Source: Naegleria gruberi (taxonomy: Eukaryota). From it: a stretch of 45,328 nt of DNA. Under the pieces are notes generated by a model, which ran no database searches, was not told where the DNA came from, and saw nothing but the letters and a program-made list of their open reading frames with translations. Shown piece by piece: positions 1-33,551 of this stretch (the stretch's first letter is position 1; every line of letters begins with the position of its first letter). The position numbers were made by a program, and so were the translations under genes. The stretch lies in NCBI GenBank assembly GCA_000004985.1, contig GG738941.1; one strand, given 5' to 3'.

Positions 1-424
1 TCAAACCCAAACCCAAACCCAAACCCAAACCCAAACCCAAACCCAAACCCAAACCCAAGCCCAAACCCAAACCCAAACCCAAACCCAAACCCAAACCCAA
101 ACCCAAACCCAAACCCAAACCCAAACCCAAACCCAAACCCAAACCCAAACCCAAACCCAAACCCAAACCCAAACCCAAACCCAAACCCAAACCCAAACCC
201 AAACCCAAACCCAAACCCAAACCCAAACCCAAACCCAAACCCAAACCCAAACCCAAACCCAAACCCAAACCCAAACCAAAACCCAAACCAAAACCCAAAC
301 CAAAACCCAAACCCAAACCCAAACCAAAACCCAAACCAAAACCCAAACCAAAACCCAAAACCCAAACCAAAACCAACACCCAAACCCAAACCCAAACCCA
401 AACCCAAACCCAAACCCAAACCCA
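1..424. repeat. Telomere-type hexamer array: (CCCAAA)n on + strand = (TTTGGG)n on - strand, ~70 units
   Basis: Near-perfect CCCAAA hexamers from base 1. The inner ~150 bp (about 270-400) degenerates into CCAAAA, CCCAAG and CCAACA variants before ending in unique sequence (cccacgactaagg). C-rich strand 5'->3' on + at the left edge fits a left chromosome end. Confidence 0.9.
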
Positions 425-1099
425 CGACTAAGGTCAGACCCAACATTTTTACTTTTATTCATCTTAATTAATTATCTCAATAAATACTCATTATAAATCA
501 ATATATTATATATCAATATACTCCAAATTTAATATATAATCATATAATAACATAATATTACATCATTATAATGACTTATATAAGTTAATTTCATATAATA
601 GATTAGACAATTAGAATATCAATGAAAACATTTCAAAATCATTTTAAATCAATATATCACCTTATAAATCATATTAGTAACAATATATATCAATTTCAAA
701 TACTTTGGTATCATTTCAGGATATTTACTATTCAACTTGTCAACTGACCTATTCTAACATTGAAGATAGAAATCTATACCACTTCAATTCACTTCCAATA
801 CCTCTACACATGATAATTAAATACATTAATATCATTTTGACATTCATCCATATCATACATGGTACATGGCTGATCCACTTGATACCTACAGGGATGTGAC
901 AATGACATCTACTATACAGATCATTATAAAATTGATACAGTACCTTACTAATGGTGAATAAACACTACTGTATCAGTTTCATGACAATTTGATATCATTC
1001 AACATGTCAGGAGTGTAATCATGGGAATAATGAATATCAAGATAATCAAATCATATTAATTTTAANATATTTCAATTATAGCATTATATATAGATCAAT

Positions 1100-4000
1100 N
1101 NNNNNNNNNNNNNNNNNNNNNNNNNNNNNNNNNNNNNNNNNNNNNNNNNNNNNNNNNNNNNNNNNNNNNNNNNNNNNNNNNNNNNNNNNNNNNNNNNNNN
1201 NNNNNNNNNNNNNNNNNNNNNNNNNNNNNNNNNNNNNNNNNNNNNNNNNNNNNNNNNNNNNNNNNNNNNNNNNNNNNNNNNNNNNNNNNNNNNNNNNNNN
1301 NNNNNNNNNNNNNNNNNNNNNNNNNNNNNNNNNNNNNNNNNNNNNNNNNNNNNNNNNNNNNNNNNNNNNNNNNNNNNNNNNNNNNNNNNNNNNNNNNNNN
1401 NNNNNNNNNNNNNNNNNNNNNNNNNNNNNNNNNNNNNNNNNNNNNNNNNNNNNNNNNNNNNNNNNNNNNNNNNNNNNNNNNNNNNNNNNNNNNNNNNNNN
1501 NNNNNNNNNNNNNNNNNNNNNNNNNNNNNNNNNNNNNNNNNNNNNNNNNNNNNNNNNNNNNNNNNNNNNNNNNNNNNNNNNNNNNNNNNNNNNNNNNNNN
1601 NNNNNNNNNNNNNNNNNNNNNNNNNNNNNNNNNNNNNNNNNNNNNNNNNNNNNNNNNNNNNNNNNNNNNNNNNNNNNNNNNNNNNNNNNNNNNNNNNNNN
1701 NNNNNNNNNNNNNNNNNNNNNNNNNNNNNNNNNNNNNNNNNNNNNNNNNNNNNNNNNNNNNNNNNNNNNNNNNNNNNNNNNNNNNNNNNNNNNNNNNNNN
1801 NNNNNNNNNNNNNNNNNNNNNNNNNNNNNNNNNNNNNNNNNNNNNNNNNNNNNNNNNNNNNNNNNNNNNNNNNNNNNNNNNNNNNNNNNNNNNNNNNNNN
1901 NNNNNNNNNNNNNNNNNNNNNNNNNNNNNNNNNNNNNNNNNNNNNNNNNNNNNNNNNNNNNNNNNNNNNNNNNNNNNNNNNNNNNNNNNNNNNNNNNNNN
2001 NNNNNNNNNNNNNNNNNNNNNNNNNNNNNNNNNNNNNNNNNNNNNNNNNNNNNNNNNNNNNNNNNNNNNNNNNNNNNNNNNNNNNNNNNNNNNNNNNNNN
2101 NNNNNNNNNNNNNNNNNNNNNNNNNNNNNNNNNNNNNNNNNNNNNNNNNNNNNNNNNNNNNNNNNNNNNNNNNNNNNNNNNNNNNNNNNNNNNNNNNNNN
2201 NNNNNNNNNNNNNNNNNNNNNNNNNNNNNNNNNNNNNNNNNNNNNNNNNNNNNNNNNNNNNNNNNNNNNNNNNNNNNNNNNNNNNNNNNNNNNNNNNNNN
2301 NNNNNNNNNNNNNNNNNNNNNNNNNNNNNNNNNNNNNNNNNNNNNNNNNNNNNNNNNNNNNNNNNNNNNNNNNNNNNNNNNNNNNNNNNNNNNNNNNNNN
2401 NNNNNNNNNNNNNNNNNNNNNNNNNNNNNNNNNNNNNNNNNNNNNNNNNNNNNNNNNNNNNNNNNNNNNNNNNNNNNNNNNNNNNNNNNNNNNNNNNNNN
2501 NNNNNNNNNNNNNNNNNNNNNNNNNNNNNNNNNNNNNNNNNNNNNNNNNNNNNNNNNNNNNNNNNNNNNNNNNNNNNNNNNNNNNNNNNNNNNNNNNNNN
2601 NNNNNNNNNNNNNNNNNNNNNNNNNNNNNNNNNNNNNNNNNNNNNNNNNNNNNNNNNNNNNNNNNNNNNNNNNNNNNNNNNNNNNNNNNNNNNNNNNNNN
2701 NNNNNNNNNNNNNNNNNNNNNNNNNNNNNNNNNNNNNNNNNNNNNNNNNNNNNNNNNNNNNNNNNNNNNNNNNNNNNNNNNNNNNNNNNNNNNNNNNNNN
2801 NNNNNNNNNNNNNNNNNNNNNNNNNNNNNNNNNNNNNNNNNNNNNNNNNNNNNNNNNNNNNNNNNNNNNNNNNNNNNNNNNNNNNNNNNNNNNNNNNNNN
2901 NNNNNNNNNNNNNNNNNNNNNNNNNNNNNNNNNNNNNNNNNNNNNNNNNNNNNNNNNNNNNNNNNNNNNNNNNNNNNNNNNNNNNNNNNNNNNNNNNNNN
3001 NNNNNNNNNNNNNNNNNNNNNNNNNNNNNNNNNNNNNNNNNNNNNNNNNNNNNNNNNNNNNNNNNNNNNNNNNNNNNNNNNNNNNNNNNNNNNNNNNNNN
3101 NNNNNNNNNNNNNNNNNNNNNNNNNNNNNNNNNNNNNNNNNNNNNNNNNNNNNNNNNNNNNNNNNNNNNNNNNNNNNNNNNNNNNNNNNNNNNNNNNNNN
3201 NNNNNNNNNNNNNNNNNNNNNNNNNNNNNNNNNNNNNNNNNNNNNNNNNNNNNNNNNNNNNNNNNNNNNNNNNNNNNNNNNNNNNNNNNNNNNNNNNNNN
3301 NNNNNNNNNNNNNNNNNNNNNNNNNNNNNNNNNNNNNNNNNNNNNNNNNNNNNNNNNNNNNNNNNNNNNNNNNNNNNNNNNNNNNNNNNNNNNNNNNNNN
3401 NNNNNNNNNNNNNNNNNNNNNNNNNNNNNNNNNNNNNNNNNNNNNNNNNNNNNNNNNNNNNNNNNNNNNNNNNNNNNNNNNNNNNNNNNNNNNNNNNNNN
3501 NNNNNNNNNNNNNNNNNNNNNNNNNNNNNNNNNNNNNNNNNNNNNNNNNNNNNNNNNNNNNNNNNNNNNNNNNNNNNNNNNNNNNNNNNNNNNNNNNNNN
3601 NNNNNNNNNNNNNNNNNNNNNNNNNNNNNNNNNNNNNNNNNNNNNNNNNNNNNNNNNNNNNNNNNNNNNNNNNNNNNNNNNNNNNNNNNNNNNNNNNNNN
3701 NNNNNNNNNNNNNNNNNNNNNNNNNNNNNNNNNNNNNNNNNNNNNNNNNNNNNNNNNNNNNNNNNNNNNNNNNNNNNNNNNNNNNNNNNNNNNNNNNNNN
3801 NNNNNNNNNNNNNNNNNNNNNNNNNNNNNNNNNNNNNNNNNNNNNNNNNNNNNNNNNNNNNNNNNNNNNNNNNNNNNNNNNNNNNNNNNNNNNNNNNNNN
3901 NNNNNNNNNNNNNNNNNNNNNNNNNNNNNNNNNNNNNNNNNNNNNNNNNNNNNNNNNNNNNNNNNNNNNNNNNNNNNNNNNNNNNNNNNNNNNNNNNNNN

Positions 4001-6455
4001 NNNNNNNNNNNNNNNNNNNNNNNNNNNNNNNNNNNNNNNNNNNNNNNNNNNNNNNNNNNNNNNNNNNNNNNNNNNNNNNNNNNNNNNNNNNNNNNNNNNN
4101 NNNNNNNNNNNNNNNNNNNNNNNNNNNNNNNNNNNNNNNNNNNNNNNNNNNNNNNNNNNNNNNNNNNNNNNNNNNNNNNNNNNNNNNNNNNNNNNNNNNN
4201 NNNNNNNNNNNNNNNNNNNNNNNNNNNNNNNNNNNNNNNNNNNNNNNNNNNNNNNNNNNNNNNNNNNNNNNNNNNNNNNNNNNNNNNNNNNNNNNNNNNN
4301 NNNNNNNNNNNNNNNNNNNNNNNNNNNNNNNNNNNNNNNNNNNNNNNNNNNNNNNNNNNNNNNNNNNNNNNNNNNNNNNNNNNNNNNNNNNNNNNNNNNN
4401 NNNNNNNNNNNNNNNNNNNNNNNNNNNNNNNNNNNNNNNNNNNNNNNNNNNNNNNNNNNNNNNNNNNNNNNNNNNNNNNNNNNNNNNNNNNNNNNNNNNN
4501 NNNNNNNNNNNNNNNNNNNNNNNNNNNNNNNNNNNNNNNNNNNNNNNNNNNNNNNNNNNNNNNNNNNNNNNNNNNNNNNNNNNNNNNNNNNNNNNNNNNN
4601 NNNNNNNNNNNNNNNNNNNNNNNNNNNNNNNNNNNNNNNNNNNNNNNNNNNNNNNNNNNNNNNNNNNNNNNNNNNNNNNNNNNNNNNNNNNNNNNNNNNN
4701 NNNNNNNNNNNNNNNNNNNNNNNNNNNNNNNNNNNNNNNNNNNNNNNNNNNNNNNNNNNNNNNNNNNNNNNNNNNNNNNNNNNNNNNNNNNNNNNNNNNN
4801 NNNNNNNNNNNNNNNNNNNNNNNNNNNNNNNNNNNNNNNNNNNNNNNNNNNNNNNNNNNNNNNNNNNNNNNNNNNNNNNNNNNNNNNNNNNNNNNNNNNN
4901 NNNNNNNNNNNNNNNNNNNNNNNNNNNNNNNNNNNNNNNNNNNNNNNNNNNNNNNNNNNNNNNNNNNNNNNNNNNNNNNNNNNNNNNNNNNNNNNNNNNN
5001 NNNNNNNNNNNNNNNNNNNNNNNNNNNNNNNNNNNNNNNNNNNNNNNNNNNNNNNNNNNNNNNNNNNNNNNNNNNNNNNNNNNNNNNNNNNNNNNNNNNN
5101 NNNNNNNNNNNNNNNNNNNNNNNNNNNNNNNNNNNNNNNNNNNNNNNNNNNNNNNNNNNNNNNNNNNNNNNNNNNNNNNNNNNNNNNNNNNNNNNNNNNN
5201 NNNNNNNNNNNNNNNNNNNNNNNNNNNNNNNNNNNNNNNNNNNNNNNNNNNNNNNNNNNNNNNNNNNNNNNNNNNNNNNNNNNNNNNNNNNNNNNNNNNN
5301 NNNNNNNNNNNNNNNNNNNNNNNNNNNNNNNNNNNNNNNNNNNNNNNNNNNNNNNNNNNNNNNNNNNNNNNNNNNNNNNNNNNNNNNNNNNNNNNNNNNN
5401 NNNNNNNNNNNNNNNNNNNNNNNNNNNNNNNNNNNNNNNNNNNNNNNNNNNNNNNNNNNNNNNNNNNNNNNNNNNNNNNNNNNNNNNNNNNNNNNNNNNN
5501 NNNNNNNNNNNNNNNNNNNNNNNNNNNNNNNNNNNNNNNNNNNNNNNNNNNNNNNNNNNNNNNNNNNNNNNNNNNNNNNNNNNNNNNNNNNNNNNNNNNN
5601 NNNNNNNNNNNNNNNNNNNNNNNNNNNNNNNNNNNNNNNNNNNNNNNNNNNNNNNNNNNNNNNNNNNNNNNNNNNNNNNNNNNNNNNNNNNNNNNNNNNN
5701 NNNNNNNNNNNNNNNNNNNNNNNNNNNNNNNNNNNNNNNNNNNNNNNNNNNNNNNNNNNNNNNNNNNNNNNNNNNNNNNNNNNNNNNNNNNNNNNNNNNN
5801 NNNNNNNNNNNNNNNNNNNNNNNNNNNNNNNNNNNNNNNNNNNNNNNNNNNNNNNNNNNNNNNNNNNNNNNNNNNNNNNNNNNNNNNNNNNNNNNNNNNN
5901 NNNNNNNNNNNNNNNNNNNNNNNNNNNNNNNNNNNNNNNNNNNNNNNNNNNNNNNNNNNNNNNNNNNNNNNNNNNNNNNNNNNNNNNNNNNNNNNNNNNN
6001 NNNNNNNNNNNNNNNNNNNNNNNNNNNNNNNNNNNNNNNNNNNNNNNNNNNNNNNNNNNNNNNNNNNNNNNNNNNNNNNNNNNNNNNNNNNNNNNNNNNN
6101 NNNNNNNNNNNNNNNNNNNNNNNNNNNNNNNNNNNNNNNNNNNNNNNNNNNNNNNNNNNNNNNNNNNNNNNNNNNNNNNNNNNNNNNNNNNNNNNNNNNN
6201 NNNNNNNNNNNNNNNNNNNNNNNNNNNNNNNNNNNNNNNNNNNNNNNNNNNNNNNNNNNNNNNNNNNNNNNNNNNNNNNNNNNNNNNNNNNNNNNNNNNN
6301 NNNNNNNNNNNNNNNNNNNNNNNNNNNNNNNNNNNNNNNNNNNNNNNNNNNNNNNNNNNNNNNNNNNNNNNNNNNNNNNNNNNNNNNNNNNNNNNNNNNN
6401 NNNNNNNNNNNNNNNNNNNNNNNNNNNNNNNNNNNNNNNNNNNNNNNNNNNNNNN
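1100..6455. other. Assembly gap (5356 N)
   Basis: Uninterrupted run of n. The ORF-track entries 1076..6487 and 1095..6461 are poly-X artefacts of this gap. Confidence 1.
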
Positions 6456-7466
6456 AGCCACTCCAAGCTCATTTGAAACAGTTTCAAAAAGTTTTTACAT
6501 CGGGTTGGATAACAACCATTGTTTTAAAGATTACAGTTGTGAAAAATCGACCAATCTCAATCATTTTTGAGAATTTAAGTATACTGTAAAGGACTGGTAC
6601 CATTTCCATCGAGTTTTGAACATTTTCCATCTACTTGAAAAAATTCCTTACTAATTGTGAAATATTCAAAGTTCAGTAAGAAAGTTTAATTGTGAAAATG
6701 TTGGCTCTTTGCCAGAATACCAGTTAAAATTGTATTCCGATTGAATTTTACGTAAGCACACCGGGTTTGAGCCACACCAAGCTCATTTAAGAAAGTTTAA
6801 TTTAATTTTACAACGGGTTTGAGCCAGTCCATGGAGTTGTTAGTAAAGAGTGGTTGGATGAAATCACTGTTTCAAAGATAATAGTTGTGAAAAATCGACC
6901 AGTCTCAATCATTATTAAGAATTTGAGTATAGTTCAATGGAATTATACCATCTATAGCCAGTTTTGAACATTTTCCATCTCTTTGTAAAAATTCCTTAAT
7001 AATTAGGATGAAGGAAAAGTTCACTAAGAAAAGACAATGATAATTTGTTGAACAGTATTGTACAATCCCCACCTAAAGGTTGAATAAGTCACTCTTTTGA
7101 GAAGAAGCAACGGGTTTGAGCAACTCCAAGCTCATTTGAAACATTTAATAGTAGTTGTTACATCGGGTTGGATGACAACCACTGTTTTAAAGATTACAGT
7201 TGTGAAAAATCGACCAATCTCAATCATTTTTGAGAATTTAAGTACACTTTAAAGGACTGCCACCATTTCCATCGATTTTGGAACATTTTCCATCTACTTG
7301 AAACAATTCCTTAATAATTGTGAAGTAAGAAAAGTTCAGTAAGAAAAAATAAATTTCAGTTTGTTGTATAGTTAATACATTCTCATTCAAAAGGTTGGAT
7401 AAGTCTCTTTTTGAAAAGAAGCAACGGGTTTGAGCCACTCCACGTTCATTGAAACAATTCAAACAG
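6456..7466. repeat. Subtelomeric tandem satellite, unit ~300-315 bp, ~3.2 copies, bounded by gaps on both sides
   Basis: The unit-start motif 'gggtttgagcc[a/g][c/g]tccaagctcatttgaaaca' recurs at about 6448 (inside the gap), 6763, 6815 (a 52-bp partial duplicate), 7112 and 7426. The unit body 'gttgtgaaaaatcgaccaatctcaatcatttttgagaatttaagtat...ccatttccatcga...gaacattttccatctacttgaaa' is conserved. Copies 1 and 3 are ~90% identical; copy 2 is more diverged. Confidence 0.85.
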
Positions 7467-7516
7467 NNNNNNNNNNNNNNNNNNNNNNNNNNNNNNNNNN
7501 NNNNNNNNNNNNNNNN
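7467..7516. other. Assembly gap (50 N, typical scaffolder spacer)
   Basis: Exactly 50 n between the satellite and the second CCCAAA array. Confidence 1.
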
Positions 7517-7899
7517 CCCAAACCCAAACCCAAACCCAAACCCAAACCCAAACCCAAACCCAAACCCAAACCCAAACCCAAACCCAAACCCAAACCCAAA
7601 CCCAAACCCAAACCCAAACCCAAACCCAAACCCAAACCCAAACCCAAACCCAAACCCAAACCCAAACCCAAACCCAAACCCAAACCCAAACCCAAACCCA
7701 AACCCAAACCCAAACCCAAACCCAAACCCAAACCCAAACCCAAACCCAAACCCAACCCAAACCCAAACCCAAACCCAAACCCAAACCCAAACCCAAACCC
7801 AAACCCAAACCCAAACCCAAACCCAAACCCAAACCCAAACCCAAACCCAAACCCAAACCCAAACCCAAACCCAAACCCAAACCCAACCCAACCCAACCC
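7517..7899. repeat. Second telomere-type (CCCAAA)n array, ~63 units, same orientation as array 1
   Basis: Almost perfectly homogeneous CCCAAA. There is one CCCAA variant near 7755, and the inner end degenerates to cccaacccaacccaaccc before unique sequence. The array abuts the gap on its 5' side. Confidence 0.9.
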
Positions 7900-8433
7900 G
7901 TAACTTTACCATATACCTTTAATCACTCTATTATACATCTGGTATCAATTTCATACAGTTAGAATTGAATTCAGTATGATAATAATAACAATCTTTCAAA
8001 ATGACATATTTCAATAAAAAGATTACACTCCATCTCAGTCAGTTTACAAAATATCATACTAGTATCAAATATGAATAGACTCCTCTTGATGAGGAGTACA
8101 ATCTGAGAAAGTTTCAAATTCATGGCTCAGTATCTTCAAGTCAACTAAGTAACCTTAGAATAGACAAGTCAATTAAGTACATCAATTCAACAATTGAAAA
8201 TTGAAATATAGTATATTTATTACAAATTAATAGGACTCTTCTAAATAACTATATCGTTTAAATTAATATTTGTAAAGTTGTCAACACATCATGTCACAGA
8301 TCATACTCTTTCTCAATGAATAGTTGACTAAATCAATTTAAAATGACATATAGTTGTTTATACATAGTATTGTATATGTGGTATCAATATCTTTTAAAAT
8401 TGTCAAGTATTAAGGAAGATCTAAAAAAATAAG

Positions 8434-11400
8434 NNNNNNNNNNNNNNNNNNNNNNNNNNNNNNNNNNNNNNNNNNNNNNNNNNNNNNNNNNNNNNNNNNN
8501 NNNNNNNNNNNNNNNNNNNNNNNNNNNNNNNNNNNNNNNNNNNNNNNNNNNNNNNNNNNNNNNNNNNNNNNNNNNNNNNNNNNNNNNNNNNNNNNNNNNN
8601 NNNNNNNNNNNNNNNNNNNNNNNNNNNNNNNNNNNNNNNNNNNNNNNNNNNNNNNNNNNNNNNNNNNNNNNNNNNNNNNNNNNNNNNNNNNNNNNNNNNN
8701 NNNNNNNNNNNNNNNNNNNNNNNNNNNNNNNNNNNNNNNNNNNNNNNNNNNNNNNNNNNNNNNNNNNNNNNNNNNNNNNNNNNNNNNNNNNNNNNNNNNN
8801 NNNNNNNNNNNNNNNNNNNNNNNNNNNNNNNNNNNNNNNNNNNNNNNNNNNNNNNNNNNNNNNNNNNNNNNNNNNNNNNNNNNNNNNNNNNNNNNNNNNN
8901 NNNNNNNNNNNNNNNNNNNNNNNNNNNNNNNNNNNNNNNNNNNNNNNNNNNNNNNNNNNNNNNNNNNNNNNNNNNNNNNNNNNNNNNNNNNNNNNNNNNN
9001 NNNNNNNNNNNNNNNNNNNNNNNNNNNNNNNNNNNNNNNNNNNNNNNNNNNNNNNNNNNNNNNNNNNNNNNNNNNNNNNNNNNNNNNNNNNNNNNNNNNN
9101 NNNNNNNNNNNNNNNNNNNNNNNNNNNNNNNNNNNNNNNNNNNNNNNNNNNNNNNNNNNNNNNNNNNNNNNNNNNNNNNNNNNNNNNNNNNNNNNNNNNN
9201 NNNNNNNNNNNNNNNNNNNNNNNNNNNNNNNNNNNNNNNNNNNNNNNNNNNNNNNNNNNNNNNNNNNNNNNNNNNNNNNNNNNNNNNNNNNNNNNNNNNN
9301 NNNNNNNNNNNNNNNNNNNNNNNNNNNNNNNNNNNNNNNNNNNNNNNNNNNNNNNNNNNNNNNNNNNNNNNNNNNNNNNNNNNNNNNNNNNNNNNNNNNN
9401 NNNNNNNNNNNNNNNNNNNNNNNNNNNNNNNNNNNNNNNNNNNNNNNNNNNNNNNNNNNNNNNNNNNNNNNNNNNNNNNNNNNNNNNNNNNNNNNNNNNN
9501 NNNNNNNNNNNNNNNNNNNNNNNNNNNNNNNNNNNNNNNNNNNNNNNNNNNNNNNNNNNNNNNNNNNNNNNNNNNNNNNNNNNNNNNNNNNNNNNNNNNN
9601 NNNNNNNNNNNNNNNNNNNNNNNNNNNNNNNNNNNNNNNNNNNNNNNNNNNNNNNNNNNNNNNNNNNNNNNNNNNNNNNNNNNNNNNNNNNNNNNNNNNN
9701 NNNNNNNNNNNNNNNNNNNNNNNNNNNNNNNNNNNNNNNNNNNNNNNNNNNNNNNNNNNNNNNNNNNNNNNNNNNNNNNNNNNNNNNNNNNNNNNNNNNN
9801 NNNNNNNNNNNNNNNNNNNNNNNNNNNNNNNNNNNNNNNNNNNNNNNNNNNNNNNNNNNNNNNNNNNNNNNNNNNNNNNNNNNNNNNNNNNNNNNNNNNN
9901 NNNNNNNNNNNNNNNNNNNNNNNNNNNNNNNNNNNNNNNNNNNNNNNNNNNNNNNNNNNNNNNNNNNNNNNNNNNNNNNNNNNNNNNNNNNNNNNNNNNN
10001 NNNNNNNNNNNNNNNNNNNNNNNNNNNNNNNNNNNNNNNNNNNNNNNNNNNNNNNNNNNNNNNNNNNNNNNNNNNNNNNNNNNNNNNNNNNNNNNNNNNN
10101 NNNNNNNNNNNNNNNNNNNNNNNNNNNNNNNNNNNNNNNNNNNNNNNNNNNNNNNNNNNNNNNNNNNNNNNNNNNNNNNNNNNNNNNNNNNNNNNNNNNN
10201 NNNNNNNNNNNNNNNNNNNNNNNNNNNNNNNNNNNNNNNNNNNNNNNNNNNNNNNNNNNNNNNNNNNNNNNNNNNNNNNNNNNNNNNNNNNNNNNNNNNN
10301 NNNNNNNNNNNNNNNNNNNNNNNNNNNNNNNNNNNNNNNNNNNNNNNNNNNNNNNNNNNNNNNNNNNNNNNNNNNNNNNNNNNNNNNNNNNNNNNNNNNN
10401 NNNNNNNNNNNNNNNNNNNNNNNNNNNNNNNNNNNNNNNNNNNNNNNNNNNNNNNNNNNNNNNNNNNNNNNNNNNNNNNNNNNNNNNNNNNNNNNNNNNN
10501 NNNNNNNNNNNNNNNNNNNNNNNNNNNNNNNNNNNNNNNNNNNNNNNNNNNNNNNNNNNNNNNNNNNNNNNNNNNNNNNNNNNNNNNNNNNNNNNNNNNN
10601 NNNNNNNNNNNNNNNNNNNNNNNNNNNNNNNNNNNNNNNNNNNNNNNNNNNNNNNNNNNNNNNNNNNNNNNNNNNNNNNNNNNNNNNNNNNNNNNNNNNN
10701 NNNNNNNNNNNNNNNNNNNNNNNNNNNNNNNNNNNNNNNNNNNNNNNNNNNNNNNNNNNNNNNNNNNNNNNNNNNNNNNNNNNNNNNNNNNNNNNNNNNN
10801 NNNNNNNNNNNNNNNNNNNNNNNNNNNNNNNNNNNNNNNNNNNNNNNNNNNNNNNNNNNNNNNNNNNNNNNNNNNNNNNNNNNNNNNNNNNNNNNNNNNN
10901 NNNNNNNNNNNNNNNNNNNNNNNNNNNNNNNNNNNNNNNNNNNNNNNNNNNNNNNNNNNNNNNNNNNNNNNNNNNNNNNNNNNNNNNNNNNNNNNNNNNN
11001 NNNNNNNNNNNNNNNNNNNNNNNNNNNNNNNNNNNNNNNNNNNNNNNNNNNNNNNNNNNNNNNNNNNNNNNNNNNNNNNNNNNNNNNNNNNNNNNNNNNN
11101 NNNNNNNNNNNNNNNNNNNNNNNNNNNNNNNNNNNNNNNNNNNNNNNNNNNNNNNNNNNNNNNNNNNNNNNNNNNNNNNNNNNNNNNNNNNNNNNNNNNN
11201 NNNNNNNNNNNNNNNNNNNNNNNNNNNNNNNNNNNNNNNNNNNNNNNNNNNNNNNNNNNNNNNNNNNNNNNNNNNNNNNNNNNNNNNNNNNNNNNNNNNN
11301 NNNNNNNNNNNNNNNNNNNNNNNNNNNNNNNNNNNNNNNNNNNNNNNNNNNNNNNNNNNNNNNNNNNNNNNNNNNNNNNNNNNNNNNNNNNNNNNNNNNN

Positions 11401-14400
11401 NNNNNNNNNNNNNNNNNNNNNNNNNNNNNNNNNNNNNNNNNNNNNNNNNNNNNNNNNNNNNNNNNNNNNNNNNNNNNNNNNNNNNNNNNNNNNNNNNNNN
11501 NNNNNNNNNNNNNNNNNNNNNNNNNNNNNNNNNNNNNNNNNNNNNNNNNNNNNNNNNNNNNNNNNNNNNNNNNNNNNNNNNNNNNNNNNNNNNNNNNNNN
11601 NNNNNNNNNNNNNNNNNNNNNNNNNNNNNNNNNNNNNNNNNNNNNNNNNNNNNNNNNNNNNNNNNNNNNNNNNNNNNNNNNNNNNNNNNNNNNNNNNNNN
11701 NNNNNNNNNNNNNNNNNNNNNNNNNNNNNNNNNNNNNNNNNNNNNNNNNNNNNNNNNNNNNNNNNNNNNNNNNNNNNNNNNNNNNNNNNNNNNNNNNNNN
11801 NNNNNNNNNNNNNNNNNNNNNNNNNNNNNNNNNNNNNNNNNNNNNNNNNNNNNNNNNNNNNNNNNNNNNNNNNNNNNNNNNNNNNNNNNNNNNNNNNNNN
11901 NNNNNNNNNNNNNNNNNNNNNNNNNNNNNNNNNNNNNNNNNNNNNNNNNNNNNNNNNNNNNNNNNNNNNNNNNNNNNNNNNNNNNNNNNNNNNNNNNNNN
12001 NNNNNNNNNNNNNNNNNNNNNNNNNNNNNNNNNNNNNNNNNNNNNNNNNNNNNNNNNNNNNNNNNNNNNNNNNNNNNNNNNNNNNNNNNNNNNNNNNNNN
12101 NNNNNNNNNNNNNNNNNNNNNNNNNNNNNNNNNNNNNNNNNNNNNNNNNNNNNNNNNNNNNNNNNNNNNNNNNNNNNNNNNNNNNNNNNNNNNNNNNNNN
12201 NNNNNNNNNNNNNNNNNNNNNNNNNNNNNNNNNNNNNNNNNNNNNNNNNNNNNNNNNNNNNNNNNNNNNNNNNNNNNNNNNNNNNNNNNNNNNNNNNNNN
12301 NNNNNNNNNNNNNNNNNNNNNNNNNNNNNNNNNNNNNNNNNNNNNNNNNNNNNNNNNNNNNNNNNNNNNNNNNNNNNNNNNNNNNNNNNNNNNNNNNNNN
12401 NNNNNNNNNNNNNNNNNNNNNNNNNNNNNNNNNNNNNNNNNNNNNNNNNNNNNNNNNNNNNNNNNNNNNNNNNNNNNNNNNNNNNNNNNNNNNNNNNNNN
12501 NNNNNNNNNNNNNNNNNNNNNNNNNNNNNNNNNNNNNNNNNNNNNNNNNNNNNNNNNNNNNNNNNNNNNNNNNNNNNNNNNNNNNNNNNNNNNNNNNNNN
12601 NNNNNNNNNNNNNNNNNNNNNNNNNNNNNNNNNNNNNNNNNNNNNNNNNNNNNNNNNNNNNNNNNNNNNNNNNNNNNNNNNNNNNNNNNNNNNNNNNNNN
12701 NNNNNNNNNNNNNNNNNNNNNNNNNNNNNNNNNNNNNNNNNNNNNNNNNNNNNNNNNNNNNNNNNNNNNNNNNNNNNNNNNNNNNNNNNNNNNNNNNNNN
12801 NNNNNNNNNNNNNNNNNNNNNNNNNNNNNNNNNNNNNNNNNNNNNNNNNNNNNNNNNNNNNNNNNNNNNNNNNNNNNNNNNNNNNNNNNNNNNNNNNNNN
12901 NNNNNNNNNNNNNNNNNNNNNNNNNNNNNNNNNNNNNNNNNNNNNNNNNNNNNNNNNNNNNNNNNNNNNNNNNNNNNNNNNNNNNNNNNNNNNNNNNNNN
13001 NNNNNNNNNNNNNNNNNNNNNNNNNNNNNNNNNNNNNNNNNNNNNNNNNNNNNNNNNNNNNNNNNNNNNNNNNNNNNNNNNNNNNNNNNNNNNNNNNNNN
13101 NNNNNNNNNNNNNNNNNNNNNNNNNNNNNNNNNNNNNNNNNNNNNNNNNNNNNNNNNNNNNNNNNNNNNNNNNNNNNNNNNNNNNNNNNNNNNNNNNNNN
13201 NNNNNNNNNNNNNNNNNNNNNNNNNNNNNNNNNNNNNNNNNNNNNNNNNNNNNNNNNNNNNNNNNNNNNNNNNNNNNNNNNNNNNNNNNNNNNNNNNNNN
13301 NNNNNNNNNNNNNNNNNNNNNNNNNNNNNNNNNNNNNNNNNNNNNNNNNNNNNNNNNNNNNNNNNNNNNNNNNNNNNNNNNNNNNNNNNNNNNNNNNNNN
13401 NNNNNNNNNNNNNNNNNNNNNNNNNNNNNNNNNNNNNNNNNNNNNNNNNNNNNNNNNNNNNNNNNNNNNNNNNNNNNNNNNNNNNNNNNNNNNNNNNNNN
13501 NNNNNNNNNNNNNNNNNNNNNNNNNNNNNNNNNNNNNNNNNNNNNNNNNNNNNNNNNNNNNNNNNNNNNNNNNNNNNNNNNNNNNNNNNNNNNNNNNNNN
13601 NNNNNNNNNNNNNNNNNNNNNNNNNNNNNNNNNNNNNNNNNNNNNNNNNNNNNNNNNNNNNNNNNNNNNNNNNNNNNNNNNNNNNNNNNNNNNNNNNNNN
13701 NNNNNNNNNNNNNNNNNNNNNNNNNNNNNNNNNNNNNNNNNNNNNNNNNNNNNNNNNNNNNNNNNNNNNNNNNNNNNNNNNNNNNNNNNNNNNNNNNNNN
13801 NNNNNNNNNNNNNNNNNNNNNNNNNNNNNNNNNNNNNNNNNNNNNNNNNNNNNNNNNNNNNNNNNNNNNNNNNNNNNNNNNNNNNNNNNNNNNNNNNNNN
13901 NNNNNNNNNNNNNNNNNNNNNNNNNNNNNNNNNNNNNNNNNNNNNNNNNNNNNNNNNNNNNNNNNNNNNNNNNNNNNNNNNNNNNNNNNNNNNNNNNNNN
14001 NNNNNNNNNNNNNNNNNNNNNNNNNNNNNNNNNNNNNNNNNNNNNNNNNNNNNNNNNNNNNNNNNNNNNNNNNNNNNNNNNNNNNNNNNNNNNNNNNNNN
14101 NNNNNNNNNNNNNNNNNNNNNNNNNNNNNNNNNNNNNNNNNNNNNNNNNNNNNNNNNNNNNNNNNNNNNNNNNNNNNNNNNNNNNNNNNNNNNNNNNNNN
14201 NNNNNNNNNNNNNNNNNNNNNNNNNNNNNNNNNNNNNNNNNNNNNNNNNNNNNNNNNNNNNNNNNNNNNNNNNNNNNNNNNNNNNNNNNNNNNNNNNNNN
14301 NNNNNNNNNNNNNNNNNNNNNNNNNNNNNNNNNNNNNNNNNNNNNNNNNNNNNNNNNNNNNNNNNNNNNNNNNNNNNNNNNNNNNNNNNNNNNNNNNNNN

Positions 14401-17400
14401 NNNNNNNNNNNNNNNNNNNNNNNNNNNNNNNNNNNNNNNNNNNNNNNNNNNNNNNNNNNNNNNNNNNNNNNNNNNNNNNNNNNNNNNNNNNNNNNNNNNN
14501 NNNNNNNNNNNNNNNNNNNNNNNNNNNNNNNNNNNNNNNNNNNNNNNNNNNNNNNNNNNNNNNNNNNNNNNNNNNNNNNNNNNNNNNNNNNNNNNNNNNN
14601 NNNNNNNNNNNNNNNNNNNNNNNNNNNNNNNNNNNNNNNNNNNNNNNNNNNNNNNNNNNNNNNNNNNNNNNNNNNNNNNNNNNNNNNNNNNNNNNNNNNN
14701 NNNNNNNNNNNNNNNNNNNNNNNNNNNNNNNNNNNNNNNNNNNNNNNNNNNNNNNNNNNNNNNNNNNNNNNNNNNNNNNNNNNNNNNNNNNNNNNNNNNN
14801 NNNNNNNNNNNNNNNNNNNNNNNNNNNNNNNNNNNNNNNNNNNNNNNNNNNNNNNNNNNNNNNNNNNNNNNNNNNNNNNNNNNNNNNNNNNNNNNNNNNN
14901 NNNNNNNNNNNNNNNNNNNNNNNNNNNNNNNNNNNNNNNNNNNNNNNNNNNNNNNNNNNNNNNNNNNNNNNNNNNNNNNNNNNNNNNNNNNNNNNNNNNN
15001 NNNNNNNNNNNNNNNNNNNNNNNNNNNNNNNNNNNNNNNNNNNNNNNNNNNNNNNNNNNNNNNNNNNNNNNNNNNNNNNNNNNNNNNNNNNNNNNNNNNN
15101 NNNNNNNNNNNNNNNNNNNNNNNNNNNNNNNNNNNNNNNNNNNNNNNNNNNNNNNNNNNNNNNNNNNNNNNNNNNNNNNNNNNNNNNNNNNNNNNNNNNN
15201 NNNNNNNNNNNNNNNNNNNNNNNNNNNNNNNNNNNNNNNNNNNNNNNNNNNNNNNNNNNNNNNNNNNNNNNNNNNNNNNNNNNNNNNNNNNNNNNNNNNN
15301 NNNNNNNNNNNNNNNNNNNNNNNNNNNNNNNNNNNNNNNNNNNNNNNNNNNNNNNNNNNNNNNNNNNNNNNNNNNNNNNNNNNNNNNNNNNNNNNNNNNN
15401 NNNNNNNNNNNNNNNNNNNNNNNNNNNNNNNNNNNNNNNNNNNNNNNNNNNNNNNNNNNNNNNNNNNNNNNNNNNNNNNNNNNNNNNNNNNNNNNNNNNN
15501 NNNNNNNNNNNNNNNNNNNNNNNNNNNNNNNNNNNNNNNNNNNNNNNNNNNNNNNNNNNNNNNNNNNNNNNNNNNNNNNNNNNNNNNNNNNNNNNNNNNN
15601 NNNNNNNNNNNNNNNNNNNNNNNNNNNNNNNNNNNNNNNNNNNNNNNNNNNNNNNNNNNNNNNNNNNNNNNNNNNNNNNNNNNNNNNNNNNNNNNNNNNN
15701 NNNNNNNNNNNNNNNNNNNNNNNNNNNNNNNNNNNNNNNNNNNNNNNNNNNNNNNNNNNNNNNNNNNNNNNNNNNNNNNNNNNNNNNNNNNNNNNNNNNN
15801 NNNNNNNNNNNNNNNNNNNNNNNNNNNNNNNNNNNNNNNNNNNNNNNNNNNNNNNNNNNNNNNNNNNNNNNNNNNNNNNNNNNNNNNNNNNNNNNNNNNN
15901 NNNNNNNNNNNNNNNNNNNNNNNNNNNNNNNNNNNNNNNNNNNNNNNNNNNNNNNNNNNNNNNNNNNNNNNNNNNNNNNNNNNNNNNNNNNNNNNNNNNN
16001 NNNNNNNNNNNNNNNNNNNNNNNNNNNNNNNNNNNNNNNNNNNNNNNNNNNNNNNNNNNNNNNNNNNNNNNNNNNNNNNNNNNNNNNNNNNNNNNNNNNN
16101 NNNNNNNNNNNNNNNNNNNNNNNNNNNNNNNNNNNNNNNNNNNNNNNNNNNNNNNNNNNNNNNNNNNNNNNNNNNNNNNNNNNNNNNNNNNNNNNNNNNN
16201 NNNNNNNNNNNNNNNNNNNNNNNNNNNNNNNNNNNNNNNNNNNNNNNNNNNNNNNNNNNNNNNNNNNNNNNNNNNNNNNNNNNNNNNNNNNNNNNNNNNN
16301 NNNNNNNNNNNNNNNNNNNNNNNNNNNNNNNNNNNNNNNNNNNNNNNNNNNNNNNNNNNNNNNNNNNNNNNNNNNNNNNNNNNNNNNNNNNNNNNNNNNN
16401 NNNNNNNNNNNNNNNNNNNNNNNNNNNNNNNNNNNNNNNNNNNNNNNNNNNNNNNNNNNNNNNNNNNNNNNNNNNNNNNNNNNNNNNNNNNNNNNNNNNN
16501 NNNNNNNNNNNNNNNNNNNNNNNNNNNNNNNNNNNNNNNNNNNNNNNNNNNNNNNNNNNNNNNNNNNNNNNNNNNNNNNNNNNNNNNNNNNNNNNNNNNN
16601 NNNNNNNNNNNNNNNNNNNNNNNNNNNNNNNNNNNNNNNNNNNNNNNNNNNNNNNNNNNNNNNNNNNNNNNNNNNNNNNNNNNNNNNNNNNNNNNNNNNN
16701 NNNNNNNNNNNNNNNNNNNNNNNNNNNNNNNNNNNNNNNNNNNNNNNNNNNNNNNNNNNNNNNNNNNNNNNNNNNNNNNNNNNNNNNNNNNNNNNNNNNN
16801 NNNNNNNNNNNNNNNNNNNNNNNNNNNNNNNNNNNNNNNNNNNNNNNNNNNNNNNNNNNNNNNNNNNNNNNNNNNNNNNNNNNNNNNNNNNNNNNNNNNN
16901 NNNNNNNNNNNNNNNNNNNNNNNNNNNNNNNNNNNNNNNNNNNNNNNNNNNNNNNNNNNNNNNNNNNNNNNNNNNNNNNNNNNNNNNNNNNNNNNNNNNN
17001 NNNNNNNNNNNNNNNNNNNNNNNNNNNNNNNNNNNNNNNNNNNNNNNNNNNNNNNNNNNNNNNNNNNNNNNNNNNNNNNNNNNNNNNNNNNNNNNNNNNN
17101 NNNNNNNNNNNNNNNNNNNNNNNNNNNNNNNNNNNNNNNNNNNNNNNNNNNNNNNNNNNNNNNNNNNNNNNNNNNNNNNNNNNNNNNNNNNNNNNNNNNN
17201 NNNNNNNNNNNNNNNNNNNNNNNNNNNNNNNNNNNNNNNNNNNNNNNNNNNNNNNNNNNNNNNNNNNNNNNNNNNNNNNNNNNNNNNNNNNNNNNNNNNN
17301 NNNNNNNNNNNNNNNNNNNNNNNNNNNNNNNNNNNNNNNNNNNNNNNNNNNNNNNNNNNNNNNNNNNNNNNNNNNNNNNNNNNNNNNNNNNNNNNNNNNN

Positions 17401-20400
17401 NNNNNNNNNNNNNNNNNNNNNNNNNNNNNNNNNNNNNNNNNNNNNNNNNNNNNNNNNNNNNNNNNNNNNNNNNNNNNNNNNNNNNNNNNNNNNNNNNNNN
17501 NNNNNNNNNNNNNNNNNNNNNNNNNNNNNNNNNNNNNNNNNNNNNNNNNNNNNNNNNNNNNNNNNNNNNNNNNNNNNNNNNNNNNNNNNNNNNNNNNNNN
17601 NNNNNNNNNNNNNNNNNNNNNNNNNNNNNNNNNNNNNNNNNNNNNNNNNNNNNNNNNNNNNNNNNNNNNNNNNNNNNNNNNNNNNNNNNNNNNNNNNNNN
17701 NNNNNNNNNNNNNNNNNNNNNNNNNNNNNNNNNNNNNNNNNNNNNNNNNNNNNNNNNNNNNNNNNNNNNNNNNNNNNNNNNNNNNNNNNNNNNNNNNNNN
17801 NNNNNNNNNNNNNNNNNNNNNNNNNNNNNNNNNNNNNNNNNNNNNNNNNNNNNNNNNNNNNNNNNNNNNNNNNNNNNNNNNNNNNNNNNNNNNNNNNNNN
17901 NNNNNNNNNNNNNNNNNNNNNNNNNNNNNNNNNNNNNNNNNNNNNNNNNNNNNNNNNNNNNNNNNNNNNNNNNNNNNNNNNNNNNNNNNNNNNNNNNNNN
18001 NNNNNNNNNNNNNNNNNNNNNNNNNNNNNNNNNNNNNNNNNNNNNNNNNNNNNNNNNNNNNNNNNNNNNNNNNNNNNNNNNNNNNNNNNNNNNNNNNNNN
18101 NNNNNNNNNNNNNNNNNNNNNNNNNNNNNNNNNNNNNNNNNNNNNNNNNNNNNNNNNNNNNNNNNNNNNNNNNNNNNNNNNNNNNNNNNNNNNNNNNNNN
18201 NNNNNNNNNNNNNNNNNNNNNNNNNNNNNNNNNNNNNNNNNNNNNNNNNNNNNNNNNNNNNNNNNNNNNNNNNNNNNNNNNNNNNNNNNNNNNNNNNNNN
18301 NNNNNNNNNNNNNNNNNNNNNNNNNNNNNNNNNNNNNNNNNNNNNNNNNNNNNNNNNNNNNNNNNNNNNNNNNNNNNNNNNNNNNNNNNNNNNNNNNNNN
18401 NNNNNNNNNNNNNNNNNNNNNNNNNNNNNNNNNNNNNNNNNNNNNNNNNNNNNNNNNNNNNNNNNNNNNNNNNNNNNNNNNNNNNNNNNNNNNNNNNNNN
18501 NNNNNNNNNNNNNNNNNNNNNNNNNNNNNNNNNNNNNNNNNNNNNNNNNNNNNNNNNNNNNNNNNNNNNNNNNNNNNNNNNNNNNNNNNNNNNNNNNNNN
18601 NNNNNNNNNNNNNNNNNNNNNNNNNNNNNNNNNNNNNNNNNNNNNNNNNNNNNNNNNNNNNNNNNNNNNNNNNNNNNNNNNNNNNNNNNNNNNNNNNNNN
18701 NNNNNNNNNNNNNNNNNNNNNNNNNNNNNNNNNNNNNNNNNNNNNNNNNNNNNNNNNNNNNNNNNNNNNNNNNNNNNNNNNNNNNNNNNNNNNNNNNNNN
18801 NNNNNNNNNNNNNNNNNNNNNNNNNNNNNNNNNNNNNNNNNNNNNNNNNNNNNNNNNNNNNNNNNNNNNNNNNNNNNNNNNNNNNNNNNNNNNNNNNNNN
18901 NNNNNNNNNNNNNNNNNNNNNNNNNNNNNNNNNNNNNNNNNNNNNNNNNNNNNNNNNNNNNNNNNNNNNNNNNNNNNNNNNNNNNNNNNNNNNNNNNNNN
19001 NNNNNNNNNNNNNNNNNNNNNNNNNNNNNNNNNNNNNNNNNNNNNNNNNNNNNNNNNNNNNNNNNNNNNNNNNNNNNNNNNNNNNNNNNNNNNNNNNNNN
19101 NNNNNNNNNNNNNNNNNNNNNNNNNNNNNNNNNNNNNNNNNNNNNNNNNNNNNNNNNNNNNNNNNNNNNNNNNNNNNNNNNNNNNNNNNNNNNNNNNNNN
19201 NNNNNNNNNNNNNNNNNNNNNNNNNNNNNNNNNNNNNNNNNNNNNNNNNNNNNNNNNNNNNNNNNNNNNNNNNNNNNNNNNNNNNNNNNNNNNNNNNNNN
19301 NNNNNNNNNNNNNNNNNNNNNNNNNNNNNNNNNNNNNNNNNNNNNNNNNNNNNNNNNNNNNNNNNNNNNNNNNNNNNNNNNNNNNNNNNNNNNNNNNNNN
19401 NNNNNNNNNNNNNNNNNNNNNNNNNNNNNNNNNNNNNNNNNNNNNNNNNNNNNNNNNNNNNNNNNNNNNNNNNNNNNNNNNNNNNNNNNNNNNNNNNNNN
19501 NNNNNNNNNNNNNNNNNNNNNNNNNNNNNNNNNNNNNNNNNNNNNNNNNNNNNNNNNNNNNNNNNNNNNNNNNNNNNNNNNNNNNNNNNNNNNNNNNNNN
19601 NNNNNNNNNNNNNNNNNNNNNNNNNNNNNNNNNNNNNNNNNNNNNNNNNNNNNNNNNNNNNNNNNNNNNNNNNNNNNNNNNNNNNNNNNNNNNNNNNNNN
19701 NNNNNNNNNNNNNNNNNNNNNNNNNNNNNNNNNNNNNNNNNNNNNNNNNNNNNNNNNNNNNNNNNNNNNNNNNNNNNNNNNNNNNNNNNNNNNNNNNNNN
19801 NNNNNNNNNNNNNNNNNNNNNNNNNNNNNNNNNNNNNNNNNNNNNNNNNNNNNNNNNNNNNNNNNNNNNNNNNNNNNNNNNNNNNNNNNNNNNNNNNNNN
19901 NNNNNNNNNNNNNNNNNNNNNNNNNNNNNNNNNNNNNNNNNNNNNNNNNNNNNNNNNNNNNNNNNNNNNNNNNNNNNNNNNNNNNNNNNNNNNNNNNNNN
20001 NNNNNNNNNNNNNNNNNNNNNNNNNNNNNNNNNNNNNNNNNNNNNNNNNNNNNNNNNNNNNNNNNNNNNNNNNNNNNNNNNNNNNNNNNNNNNNNNNNNN
20101 NNNNNNNNNNNNNNNNNNNNNNNNNNNNNNNNNNNNNNNNNNNNNNNNNNNNNNNNNNNNNNNNNNNNNNNNNNNNNNNNNNNNNNNNNNNNNNNNNNNN
20201 NNNNNNNNNNNNNNNNNNNNNNNNNNNNNNNNNNNNNNNNNNNNNNNNNNNNNNNNNNNNNNNNNNNNNNNNNNNNNNNNNNNNNNNNNNNNNNNNNNNN
20301 NNNNNNNNNNNNNNNNNNNNNNNNNNNNNNNNNNNNNNNNNNNNNNNNNNNNNNNNNNNNNNNNNNNNNNNNNNNNNNNNNNNNNNNNNNNNNNNNNNNN

Positions 20401-20461
20401 NNNNNNNNNNNNNNNNNNNNNNNNNNNNNNNNNNNNNNNNNNNNNNNNNNNNNNNNNNNNN
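8434..20461. other. Assembly gap (12028 N)
   Basis: Run of n. The ORF-track entries 8384..20509, 8410..21597 and 8421..20465 are artefacts spanning it. Confidence 1.
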
Positions 20462-26647: not shown

Positions 26648-27054
26648 CTATTTTTTTTCTTCAATCAAGTCACAAGTAGGGACGATGTTAAATCGAATCT
26701 ATACACAGCTAAAAACCCATCACCCTATCCATTCTTACTCTTCAGTTCCTTATTTGATTTTGTTTAATAAGGCCAACGCATATTAGAGAGGATCCATTAA
26801 CAACCTTAATTAACGTAACCAGAACAAACAAGTAGCTATTTGCTCAATAATTTCCATTCCTGTCCTTCAGTACGCAAAACAAGCTGCAACCCACAACATT
26901 TGATTTGGGTTCCCAATAGTTTTGTACAAAGACCATCACAGACTTCCTATTCACTACGCACAAACCCTAACAAAATGTTTGCTTCGGAATCTTGAACATT
27001 CATCATGAGCAGTAGTGTTTTATCAAAAAAATTTACGCAGTTTTATCAAAAAAA
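26648..27054. promoter_or_regulatory. Divergent intergenic/promoter region between the minus giant gene and the Sel1 gene
   Basis: 407 bp between two divergently oriented ATGs, both with A-rich -1..-8 contexts. No ORF support. Confidence 0.4.
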
Positions 27055-28494: not shown

Positions 28495-28558
28495 CTCAAA
28501 AATAATTGAATATTAATATGGGCAGACAACAATAATATTGTGCACATTGAATTGACAG

Positions 28559-28830: not shown

Positions 28831-28843
28831 TTTAATTGTATTA

Positions 28844-33541: not shown

Positions 33542-33551
33542 TTTTCATTTT
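33541..33551 (+). terminator. Pol III-type T-run terminator of the 5S gene (TTTTTcaTTTT)
   Basis: A T5 run immediately after the 5S 3' end, followed by a second T4 run. Confidence 0.5.

What the first reader, a model, noticed from the sequence alone, without database searches (positions are those of the whole stretch)
1..7899. Two telomere-type (CCCAAA)n arrays in the same orientation, 7 kb apart, flanking a satellite
Both arrays read C-rich 5'->3' on the + strand, and both degrade in purity toward their inner (right) ends. That is the pattern expected if each were a genuine left chromosome end. The second array is nearly perfect (~63 units), which is atypical for an old interstitial telomeric sequence. 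So either this is a very recent telomere-healing or fusion product (an interstitial telomeric sequence), or the scaffolder has joined two telomere-bearing contigs head-to-tail across the 50-N spacer. The repeat unit TTTGGG is also worth noting for a genome whose gene features look dictyostelid-like.
Basis: seen in the sequence. Interest (0 to 1): 0.6.

Follow-up and report, generated by a model that had tools for sequence, protein, structure and literature searches.

The report
Naegleria telomere arrays, probable scaffold join
The two CCCAAA arrays are the already-published candidate telomere repeat of the amoeba Naegleria gruberi, and their head-to-tail arrangement rests only on a scaffolding join across a 50-N gap, so it is more likely an assembly product than a new kind of chromosome structure.

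Summary
(CCCAAA)n arrays lie at 2-424 (70 units) and 7517-7896 (64 units), both C-rich on the + strand. The window is one complete 45,328-bp draft scaffold of Naegleria gruberi NEG-M, not a dictyostelid. TTTGGG was already proposed in 2013 as that species' telomere repeat.

The left 20 kb is not continuous sequence. It consists of three read-sized islands (1099, 1011 and 917 bp) separated by N gaps of 5356, 50 and 12028. Of the 7,092 bases between the arrays, 5,406 are N. The "satellite" is 3.1 divergent copies of a 315-348-bp unit.

Array 2 starts exactly at a contig edge, so no sequenced base joins it to anything on its left. The flanks of the two arrays are unrelated.

Best reading (about 0.6): both arrays are physical chromosome ends, either two haplotype forms of one end or two different ends, and the scaffolder stacked them.

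Rival (about 0.3): a true internal tract under a stacked subterminal element, as with yeast Y' or Magnaporthe MoTeR.

An end-to-end fusion is excluded by orientation.

I could not retrieve reads, mate pairs or other N. gruberi scaffolds, so the question is not settled. Interest is low.

The parts
1..424 (+). Array 1: (CCCAAA)n, the C-strand of the N. gruberi TTTGGG telomere repeat, at the very start of the scaffold
   Evidence: TRF reports 70.3 copies at 95% matches. The unit parse gives 59 CCCAAA and 7 CCAAAA, with the variants at 276-378. The scaffold equals the whole record.
425..1099 (.). Flank of array 1: AT-rich (24% GC), non-coding, unique sequence. It ends at a contig edge and contains a single ambiguous base at 1066.
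   Evidence: There is no significant similarity to the flank of array 2.
1100..6455 (.). Sized scaffold gap of 5,356 N with no sequence
6456..7466 (+). Tandem repeat island: 3.1 copies of a 315-348-bp unit. Monomers 1 and 3 are about 90% identical; monomer 2 is 65-72% identical to them.
   Evidence: No ORF exceeds 75 aa and there is no Rfam match. The repeat was not found in metagenome contigs.
7467..7516 (.). 50-N gap. This is the only link between the repeat island and array 2.
7517..7896 (+). Array 2: (CCCAAA)n in the same orientation as array 1, starting at the first base of its contig
   Evidence: TRF reports 63.8 copies at 98% matches. The unit parse gives 60 CCCAAA and 4 CCCAA.
7897..8433 (.). 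Flank of array 2: AT-rich (26% GC), non-coding, unrelated to the flank of array 1
8434..20461 (.). Sized scaffold gap of 12,028 N. A Cys-rich ORF on the minus strand at 20464-21642 runs into it.
20462..45328 (.). Gene-bearing contig that anchors the scaffold. It carries giant EGF/teneurin-like genes, a Sel1 gene, LRR genes and a C2 gene. Two of its proteins are exact matches to N. gruberi EFC36113.1 and EFC36114.1.

Best explanation
Both arrays are genuine N. gruberi telomeres, each capping a physical DNA end. The head-to-tail order in this record was produced by scaffolding and is not a contiguous piece of chromosome.

In the whole-genome shotgun, each end yielded a read-length island consisting of the telomere plus about 0.5-0.7 kb of flank. 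Contig 1 was tied to the repeat island by mate pairs. Both that pair of contigs and contig 3 were tied by long-insert mates to the same gene-bearing contig, or to repeats shared with it. Contigs cannot overlap, so the scaffolder laid them in a row and put a floor-value 50-N gap between the repeat island and array 2.

The two ends are either alternative forms of one chromosome end, or two different ends linked through repeated DNA. Alternative forms could be two haplotypes of a heterozygous diploid, or a long and a truncated-then-healed form coexisting in the culture.

Shown: the arrays, their orientation, the contig and gap structure, and the unrelated flanks. Inferred: how the scaffolder made the join, and that array 2 is terminal in the cell.
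For: 1. The record is a whole 45,328-bp draft scaffold of N. gruberi, and 38% of it is N.
2. TTTGGG is the published candidate telomere repeat, found mainly at the ends of N. gruberi scaffolds.
3. Array 2 begins at the first base of its contig, as a terminal array must, and no base joins it to the DNA on its left.
4. The three islands are 1099, 1011 and 917 bp, which is Sanger-read scale. Contig 1 carries an uncalled base at 1066, suggesting very few reads. Contig 1 + gap + contig 2 add up to 7,466 bp, about one plasmid insert (the library sizes are from memory).
5. The other two gaps have odd, estimated sizes (5356 and 12028), whereas this one is exactly 50, which looks like a floor or placeholder value.
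6. The arrays are similar in length (424 and 380 bp), as expected for two ends under the same length control.
7. Their flanks share nothing (best blastn E about 1.8), so they are two different ends and not one end assembled twice.
8. Array 2 is 98% pure. That is normal for a telomerase-maintained end and unusual for an internal tract.
9. Naegleria is described as mainly a heterozygous diploid with aneuploidy and strain-variable karyotypes (PMC9928731). This makes alternative end forms plausible.
Against: - JGI-type scaffolders need several concordant mate pairs to make a join. A pure-telomere read cannot by itself place DNA outside a telomere, so some real clones probably do link this neighbourhood.
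- The poor assembly of the 7-kb and 12-kb stretches would also fit a multi-copy subterminal element, which is what the rival explanation predicts.
- The argument that reads should have spanned a 380-bp internal tract is weak if local coverage was as low as the islands suggest.
- I could not see reads, mate pairs or any other N. gruberi scaffold.
- The meaning of the 50-N gap is my inference.
Confidence: 0.6

Rival explanations
1. Array 2 is a true internal telomere tract. A subterminal module of about 7 kb (flank 1, the unsequenced 5.4 kb and the 315-348-bp repeats) was added distal to an existing telomere and then received its own telomere. The addition could have happened by break-induced replication or recombination between chromosome ends, or by a telomere-targeting transposon. 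The arrangement would resemble yeast Y' arrays or Magnaporthe MoTeR arrays. Long internal tracts of this kind break easily, so the culture could hold both a long and a short form.
For: - The same-orientation, head-to-tail geometry is exactly what such stacking gives.
- The scaffolder did link these contigs.
- The region between and beyond the arrays assembled very poorly, as multi-copy subterminal DNA would.
- Real precedents exist. In M. oryzae, telomere tracts lie between subterminal elements and break and heal (bioRxiv 10.1101/845669).
Against: - No contiguous sequence crosses the left edge of array 2.
- A tract of at least 64 near-perfect units is far longer than the documented inter-element tracts. 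In M. oryzae, three or more repeats already promote breakage, and the longest tract reported is about 15-18 canonical repeats plus variant repeats.
- The visible parts of the putative module hold no ORF above 75 aa and no recognisable family.
- If the gap really is about 50 bp, reads should have bridged a 380-bp tract.
- None of 120 metagenome contigs carrying this repeat had two arrays of 48 bp or more. This is weak evidence, because those are short-read assemblies.
Confidence: 0.3
2. One homologue, or a subpopulation of cells, lost its terminal segment by breakage at about 7897 and was healed by de novo telomere addition. The other form keeps the longer end. The scaffold merges the two. This is a special case of the best explanation, listed separately because it predicts that the distal DNA is allelic.
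For: - Array 2 is almost free of variants, and it abuts unique sequence through only three CCCAA units, as a young, newly added telomere would.
- Heterozygous diploidy and aneuploidy are reported in the genus.
- Breakage followed by healing is documented at fungal chromosome ends.
Against: - The right end of the repeat island (up to 7466) does not overlap or resemble the sequence at 7897 onward, so there is no direct sign of the long allele crossing the breakpoint.
- This cannot be told apart from the other forms of the best explanation without reads.
Confidence: 0.15
3. Array 2 is a relic of an old telomere-telomere fusion, or an ancient interstitial telomeric sequence.
For: Only that a telomere-type array lies inside a scaffold.
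Against: - Fusion of two ends gives inverted, head-to-head arrays (established knowledge, for example human 2q13). Here both arrays have the same orientation, and no TTTGGG-strand array exists in the window.
- 98% purity is incompatible with an old relic.
Confidence: 0.02

Closest known systems
Candidate telomere repeat TTTGGG of Naegleria gruberi (Fulneckova et al. 2013, Genome Biol Evol, PMC3622300)
   Same: Same species, same hexamer and same orientation relative to the sequence end. Array 1 sits at a scaffold end, which is the criterion that survey used.
   Different: Nothing differs for array 1. Array 2 is scaffold-internal, though it is at a contig end. The 2013 call was made in silico only; I found no experimental confirmation in the papers I searched.
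Scaffolding artefacts in draft assemblies: false joins, or haplotype contigs stacked in series
   Same: A telomere array at a contig edge next to a gap inside a small, gap-rich scaffold of a heterozygous genome.
   Different: Not demonstrated here, because the mate-pair evidence behind the join is not available.
Saccharomyces cerevisiae tandem Y' elements separated by internal TG1-3 tracts (established knowledge, not tested here)
   Same: Telomere tracts in the same orientation, separated by a subterminal module of about 5-7 kb, with a terminal telomere outside.
   Different: Yeast internal tracts are short (tens to about 150 bp). Y' is multi-copy and encodes a helicase. Here the tract is at least 380 bp, no ORF is visible, the copy number is unknown and the junction is unsequenced.
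MoTeR retrotransposon arrays in Magnaporthe oryzae telomeres (bioRxiv 10.1101/845669)
   Same: Interstitial telomere tracts between subterminal elements, with breakage at those tracts generating new ends.
   Different: MoTeRs encode a reverse transcriptase, and their inter-element tracts are much shorter and unstable when they contain three or more repeats. No such element is visible in the sequenced parts here.
Fusion-type interstitial telomeric sequence (for example human 2q13)
   Same: A telomere repeat inside a chromosome-scale sequence.
   Different: Head-to-head orientation and degenerate repeats. Here the arrays are head-to-tail and nearly perfect.

Membership tests
Terminal telomere array | Tandem short repeat matching the species' telomere motif | tested here: met
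   CCCAAA/TTTGGG, 70 and 64 units. The motif is published for N. gruberi. The species was identified by exact protein matches.
Terminal telomere array | The G-rich strand runs 5'->3' toward the end, so a left end reads C-rich on the top strand | tested here: met
   Both arrays read CCCAAA on the + strand, with unique DNA to their right.
Terminal telomere array | Lies at the physical end of the molecule | tested here: inconclusive
   Array 1 is at the scaffold end. Array 2 is at a contig end but is placed internally by a 50-N join. Physical terminality (Bal31 digestion, long reads) is not testable with these tools.
Terminal telomere array | Homogeneous distal repeats, with variant repeats confined to the proximal part | tested here: met
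   Array 1: variants at 276-378, and the distal 275 bp are pure apart from one unit. Array 2: variants at 7751 and 7882-7896.
Interstitial telomeric sequence | Non-telomeric DNA on both sides in contiguous sequence | tested here: not met
   The left side of array 2 is a run of 50 N, so no base connects it to 6456-7466.
Fusion-type interstitial telomeric sequence | Two arrays in inverted (head-to-head) orientation | tested here: not met
   Both arrays have the same orientation, and there is no TTTGGG-strand array in the window.
Y'-like or MoTeR-like stacked subterminal element | A discrete element between tracts, present at several chromosome ends | not testable with these tools
   Other N. gruberi scaffolds could not be retrieved, and 5,356 bp of the candidate element are N.
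Y'-like or MoTeR-like stacked subterminal element | The element encodes its own helicase or reverse transcriptase | tested here: inconclusive
   No ORF exceeds 75 aa in the 1.7 kb that is sequenced. The 5.4-kb gap could hide one.
Satellite DNA | A long array of head-to-tail monomers | tested here: inconclusive
   Only 3.1 monomers of 315-348 bp are sequenced, at 65-90% identity. Whether the array extends into the gaps is unknown.

The most novel reading that the evidence does not exclude
Naegleria chromosome ends carry stacked subterminal modules separated by long, nearly perfect telomere tracts, a Y'/MoTeR-like architecture generated by recombination or by a telomere-targeting element. Array 2 would be a fragile internal tract that can break to give a shorter end. 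This would be the first such architecture described in Heterolobosea.
Probability: 0.25. Interest if true: 0.45.

Novelty: already known. Interest (0 to 1): 0.15.

Why it matters
As it stands, the finding mainly flags a probable scaffolding problem in the 2010 N. gruberi draft. It also supplies two clean telomere/subtelomere junctions for a repeat that has only been called in silico.

It would matter more if long reads showed the internal tract to be real. Naegleria would then offer a non-fungal, non-insect example of modular, recombining chromosome ends, located next to giant surface-protein-like genes. That is the kind of setting in which other protists diversify gene families.

Tried and rejected
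- Fetching other N. gruberi scaffolds to see whether they end in the same array plus repeat. The look-up of encoding contigs has no N. gruberi genes on record, neither for a paralogue nor for the window's own protein.
- A N. lovaniensis homologue was retrievable but lies mid-contig and tells nothing about ends.
- Searching for proteins translated from telomere repeats ((WV)n/(FG)n, ORF 1-462 on the minus strand) to reach telomere-bearing contigs. The only hit was one unrelated high-GC protein.
- Searching JGI metagenome contigs for the conserved core of the 315-348-bp repeat gave 0 hits.
Arrays were 48-120 bp. 44 of the 55 end-located arrays had the proper telomere orientation, 65 were internal, and none had two arrays. 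None resembles the window's flanks or genes. This is too weak to set a base rate, because short-read assemblies collapse arrays.
- An Rfam scan of 1-8433 at E<=1 found nothing.
- An ORF scan of the three islands found nothing above 75 aa.
- Same end assembled twice: rejected, because the flanks are unrelated.
- Ciliate origin (Paramecium also uses TTTGGG units): rejected. Long ORFs are open under the standard code, and there are exact N. gruberi protein matches.
- The N. gruberi genome paper (Cell 2010) is not held in the library, so I could not read its assembly details.
Full report
**What the sequence is**

Two ORF products from the right half of the window are exact matches to Naegleria gruberi proteins EFC36113.1 and EFC36114.1. 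The only contig carrying them is 45,328 bp long, which is the length of the window. The window is therefore one complete draft scaffold of N. gruberi NEG-M. It is not a dictyostelid genome.

The scaffold is 38% N. It consists of four contigs:
- 1-1099
- 6456-7466
- 7517-8433
- 20462-45328

They are separated by N runs of 5,356, 50 and 12,028 bases. There is also a single N at position 1066.

**Checking the observation**

Tandem Repeats Finder reports a 6-bp array at 2-424 (70.3 copies, 95% matches) and another at 7517-7896 (63.8 copies, 98% matches). Both read CCCAAA on the + strand. There is no TTTGGGTTTGGG anywhere in the window, and no double CCCAAA unit outside the two arrays.

Parsed unit by unit, the arrays look like this:
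- **Array 1:** 45 distal units, pure apart from one CCCAAG; then a zone at 276-378 where CCAAAA alternates with CCCAAA; then seven perfect units next to the flank.
- **Array 2:** 39 perfect units, one CCCAA, 21 perfect units, and three CCCAA at the inner junction.

So the arrays, their shared orientation and the inward concentration of variants are real. The gradient is marginal in array 2.

The description of what lies between the arrays needs correcting. 5,406 of the 7,092 intervening bases are N. The "satellite" is 1,011 bp holding 3.1 copies of a 315-348-bp unit. Monomers 1 and 3 are about 90% identical, while monomer 2 is only 65-72% identical to them.

**What the repeat is**

Fulneckova et al. 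(2013) searched 143 genome assemblies for terminal minisatellites and named TTTGGG as the candidate telomere repeat of N. gruberi (PMC3622300). The unit is therefore already known, although only from in-silico evidence. My paper searches turned up nothing later on Naegleria telomere or subtelomere structure.

Array 1 sits at the scaffold end in the orientation expected of a left chromosome end, with the G-rich strand running 5'->3' toward the terminus. Its variants are proximal and its distal part is pure. That is the usual picture of a telomerase-maintained end.

**Anatomy around the arrays**

- The flanks (425-1099 and 7897-8433) are AT-rich, at 24% and 26% GC, somewhat below the intergenic DNA of the gene-bearing contig.
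- Neither flank holds an ORF above 75 aa, and there is no Rfam match.
- The two flanks share no significant similarity; the best blastn E-value is about 1.8 at word size 7. The two telomere-bearing contigs are therefore two different junctions and not one end assembled twice.
- The repeat island resembles nothing else in the window.

**The key structural point**

Array 2 begins at the first base after the 50-N gap. No sequenced base connects it to the repeat island. Its internal position rests wholly on the scaffolder's join.

The three left-hand contigs are 1,099, 1,011 and 917 bp, about the length of a Sanger read. Contig 1 even contains an uncalled base. Contig 1 plus its gap plus contig 2 add up to 7,466 bp, about one medium plasmid insert (the library sizes are from my memory, not from a tool). 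The two large gaps have odd, estimated sizes, whereas this one is exactly 50. I read that as a floor or placeholder value used when the estimated distance is small, negative or unknown. That reading is an inference.

**Best explanation (about 0.6)**

Both arrays cap physical DNA ends, and the scaffold stacks them. A contig that ends exactly at the outer edge of a telomere array is what a real end produces. The two arrays have similar lengths (424 and 380 bp), as two ends under the same length control would. Array 2 is 98% pure, which is normal for a living telomere and unusual for an internal tract.

Naegleria is described as mainly a heterozygous diploid, with aneuploidy and karyotypes that vary between strains (PMC9928731). 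One chromosome end could therefore exist in two forms, as divergent haplotypes or as a long form and a truncated, healed form. Both forms would legitimately link by long-insert mates to contig 4. A scaffolder that cannot overlap contigs would then lay them in series with a minimal gap. A false link through repeated DNA, such as the 315-348-bp repeat or the repetitive Cys-rich genes, is the other route to the same picture.

**Main rival (about 0.3)**

Array 2 could be a real internal tract under a stacked subterminal module, as with yeast Y' arrays (established knowledge) or MoTeR arrays in Magnaporthe oryzae (bioRxiv 10.1101/845669). The head-to-tail geometry fits exactly. The very poor assembly of the region would also fit multi-copy subterminal DNA.

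Several points count against it:
- The junction is unsequenced.
- A tract of at least 64 near-perfect units is far longer than documented inter-element tracts. In M. oryzae, tracts of three or more repeats already promote breakage.
- The visible parts of the module encode nothing.
- A 380-bp tract with a 50-bp gap should have been bridged by reads if coverage were normal. This last argument is weak, because local coverage was evidently low.

**Excluded**

An end-to-end fusion or an ancient interstitial relic is ruled out. Fusion gives inverted arrays, and relics are degenerate. Here the arrays share one orientation and are nearly perfect.

"Healing" alone also does not explain an internal array. 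It creates a terminal array, and further DNA would then have to be added outside it.

**What I could not do**

- N. gruberi genes are not on record in the contig look-up, so no other scaffold of this genome could be examined.
- A N. lovaniensis homologue was retrievable but lies mid-contig.
- A search with the telomere-derived ORF found nothing useful.
- The 315-348-bp repeat is absent from the metagenome collection.
- A scan for (CCCAAA)8 returned 120 metagenome loci with short arrays of 48-120 bp. 44 of the 55 end-located arrays had the proper orientation, 65 were internal, and none had two arrays. None is related to this window. Short-read assemblies collapse such arrays, so this says little about how often double arrays occur.

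**Verdict**

The arrays are real and are the known candidate telomere of N. gruberi. The head-to-tail arrangement is unproven and is more likely a scaffolding product than biology. Long reads that contain 7897-8433 would settle it at once. Interest is low unless those reads show the internal tract to be real.

Noticed in passing
window 276-378: The inner part of array 1 is a regular alternation of CCAAAA and CCCAAA (a 12-bp period, TTTGGGTTTTGG on the G strand) and not random decay. It could record a variant telomerase product or an old recombination event.
   Followed up: partly
window 34592-34594: A single in-frame TAA splits one 512-codon LRR reading frame into two ORFs (34016-34591 and 34595-35554). 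It falls where the repeat consensus 'ISEMKQLT' has Glu, so it looks like a GAA->TAA change. Possible causes are a pseudogene, an allele or a sequencing error.
   Followed up: partly
window 20464-26647 (-) and 36380-45328 (+): The gene-bearing contig holds giant Cys-rich EGF/teneurin-like ORFs: one of 1,716 aa; a 393-aa piece that runs into the 12-kb gap; and one of at least 2,983 aa that runs off the scaffold end. Paralogues exist in N. gruberi, with homologues in N. lovaniensis, N. fowleri and Acrasis kona. A surface-protein-like family next to a chromosome end may be worth a look.
   Followed up: partly
window 27339-27608 and 34340-34520: The 108-bp and 72-bp tandem repeats reported by TRF are coding repeats, Sel1 (36 aa) and LRR (24 aa) units inside genes. 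They are not non-coding satellites.
   Followed up: yes
window 1066: There is a single ambiguous base inside contig 1, consistent with very low read depth over the telomere-proximal island.
   Followed up: no
window 31779-34015: A 2.2-kb stretch between the C2-domain gene and the LRR gene has no ORF of 100 aa or more, at 29% GC. I did not examine it for intron-containing genes or RNAs.
   Followed up: no
loci L004, L014, L020, L039, L040, L043, L051, L058, L065, L070 (contigs JAESGV01...): Many contigs of one metagenome project end in (CCCAAA)n or (TTTGGG)n in the proper telomere orientation. This suggests an environmental eukaryote that uses the same TTTGGG telomere. It shows no similarity to this window.
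   Followed up: partly
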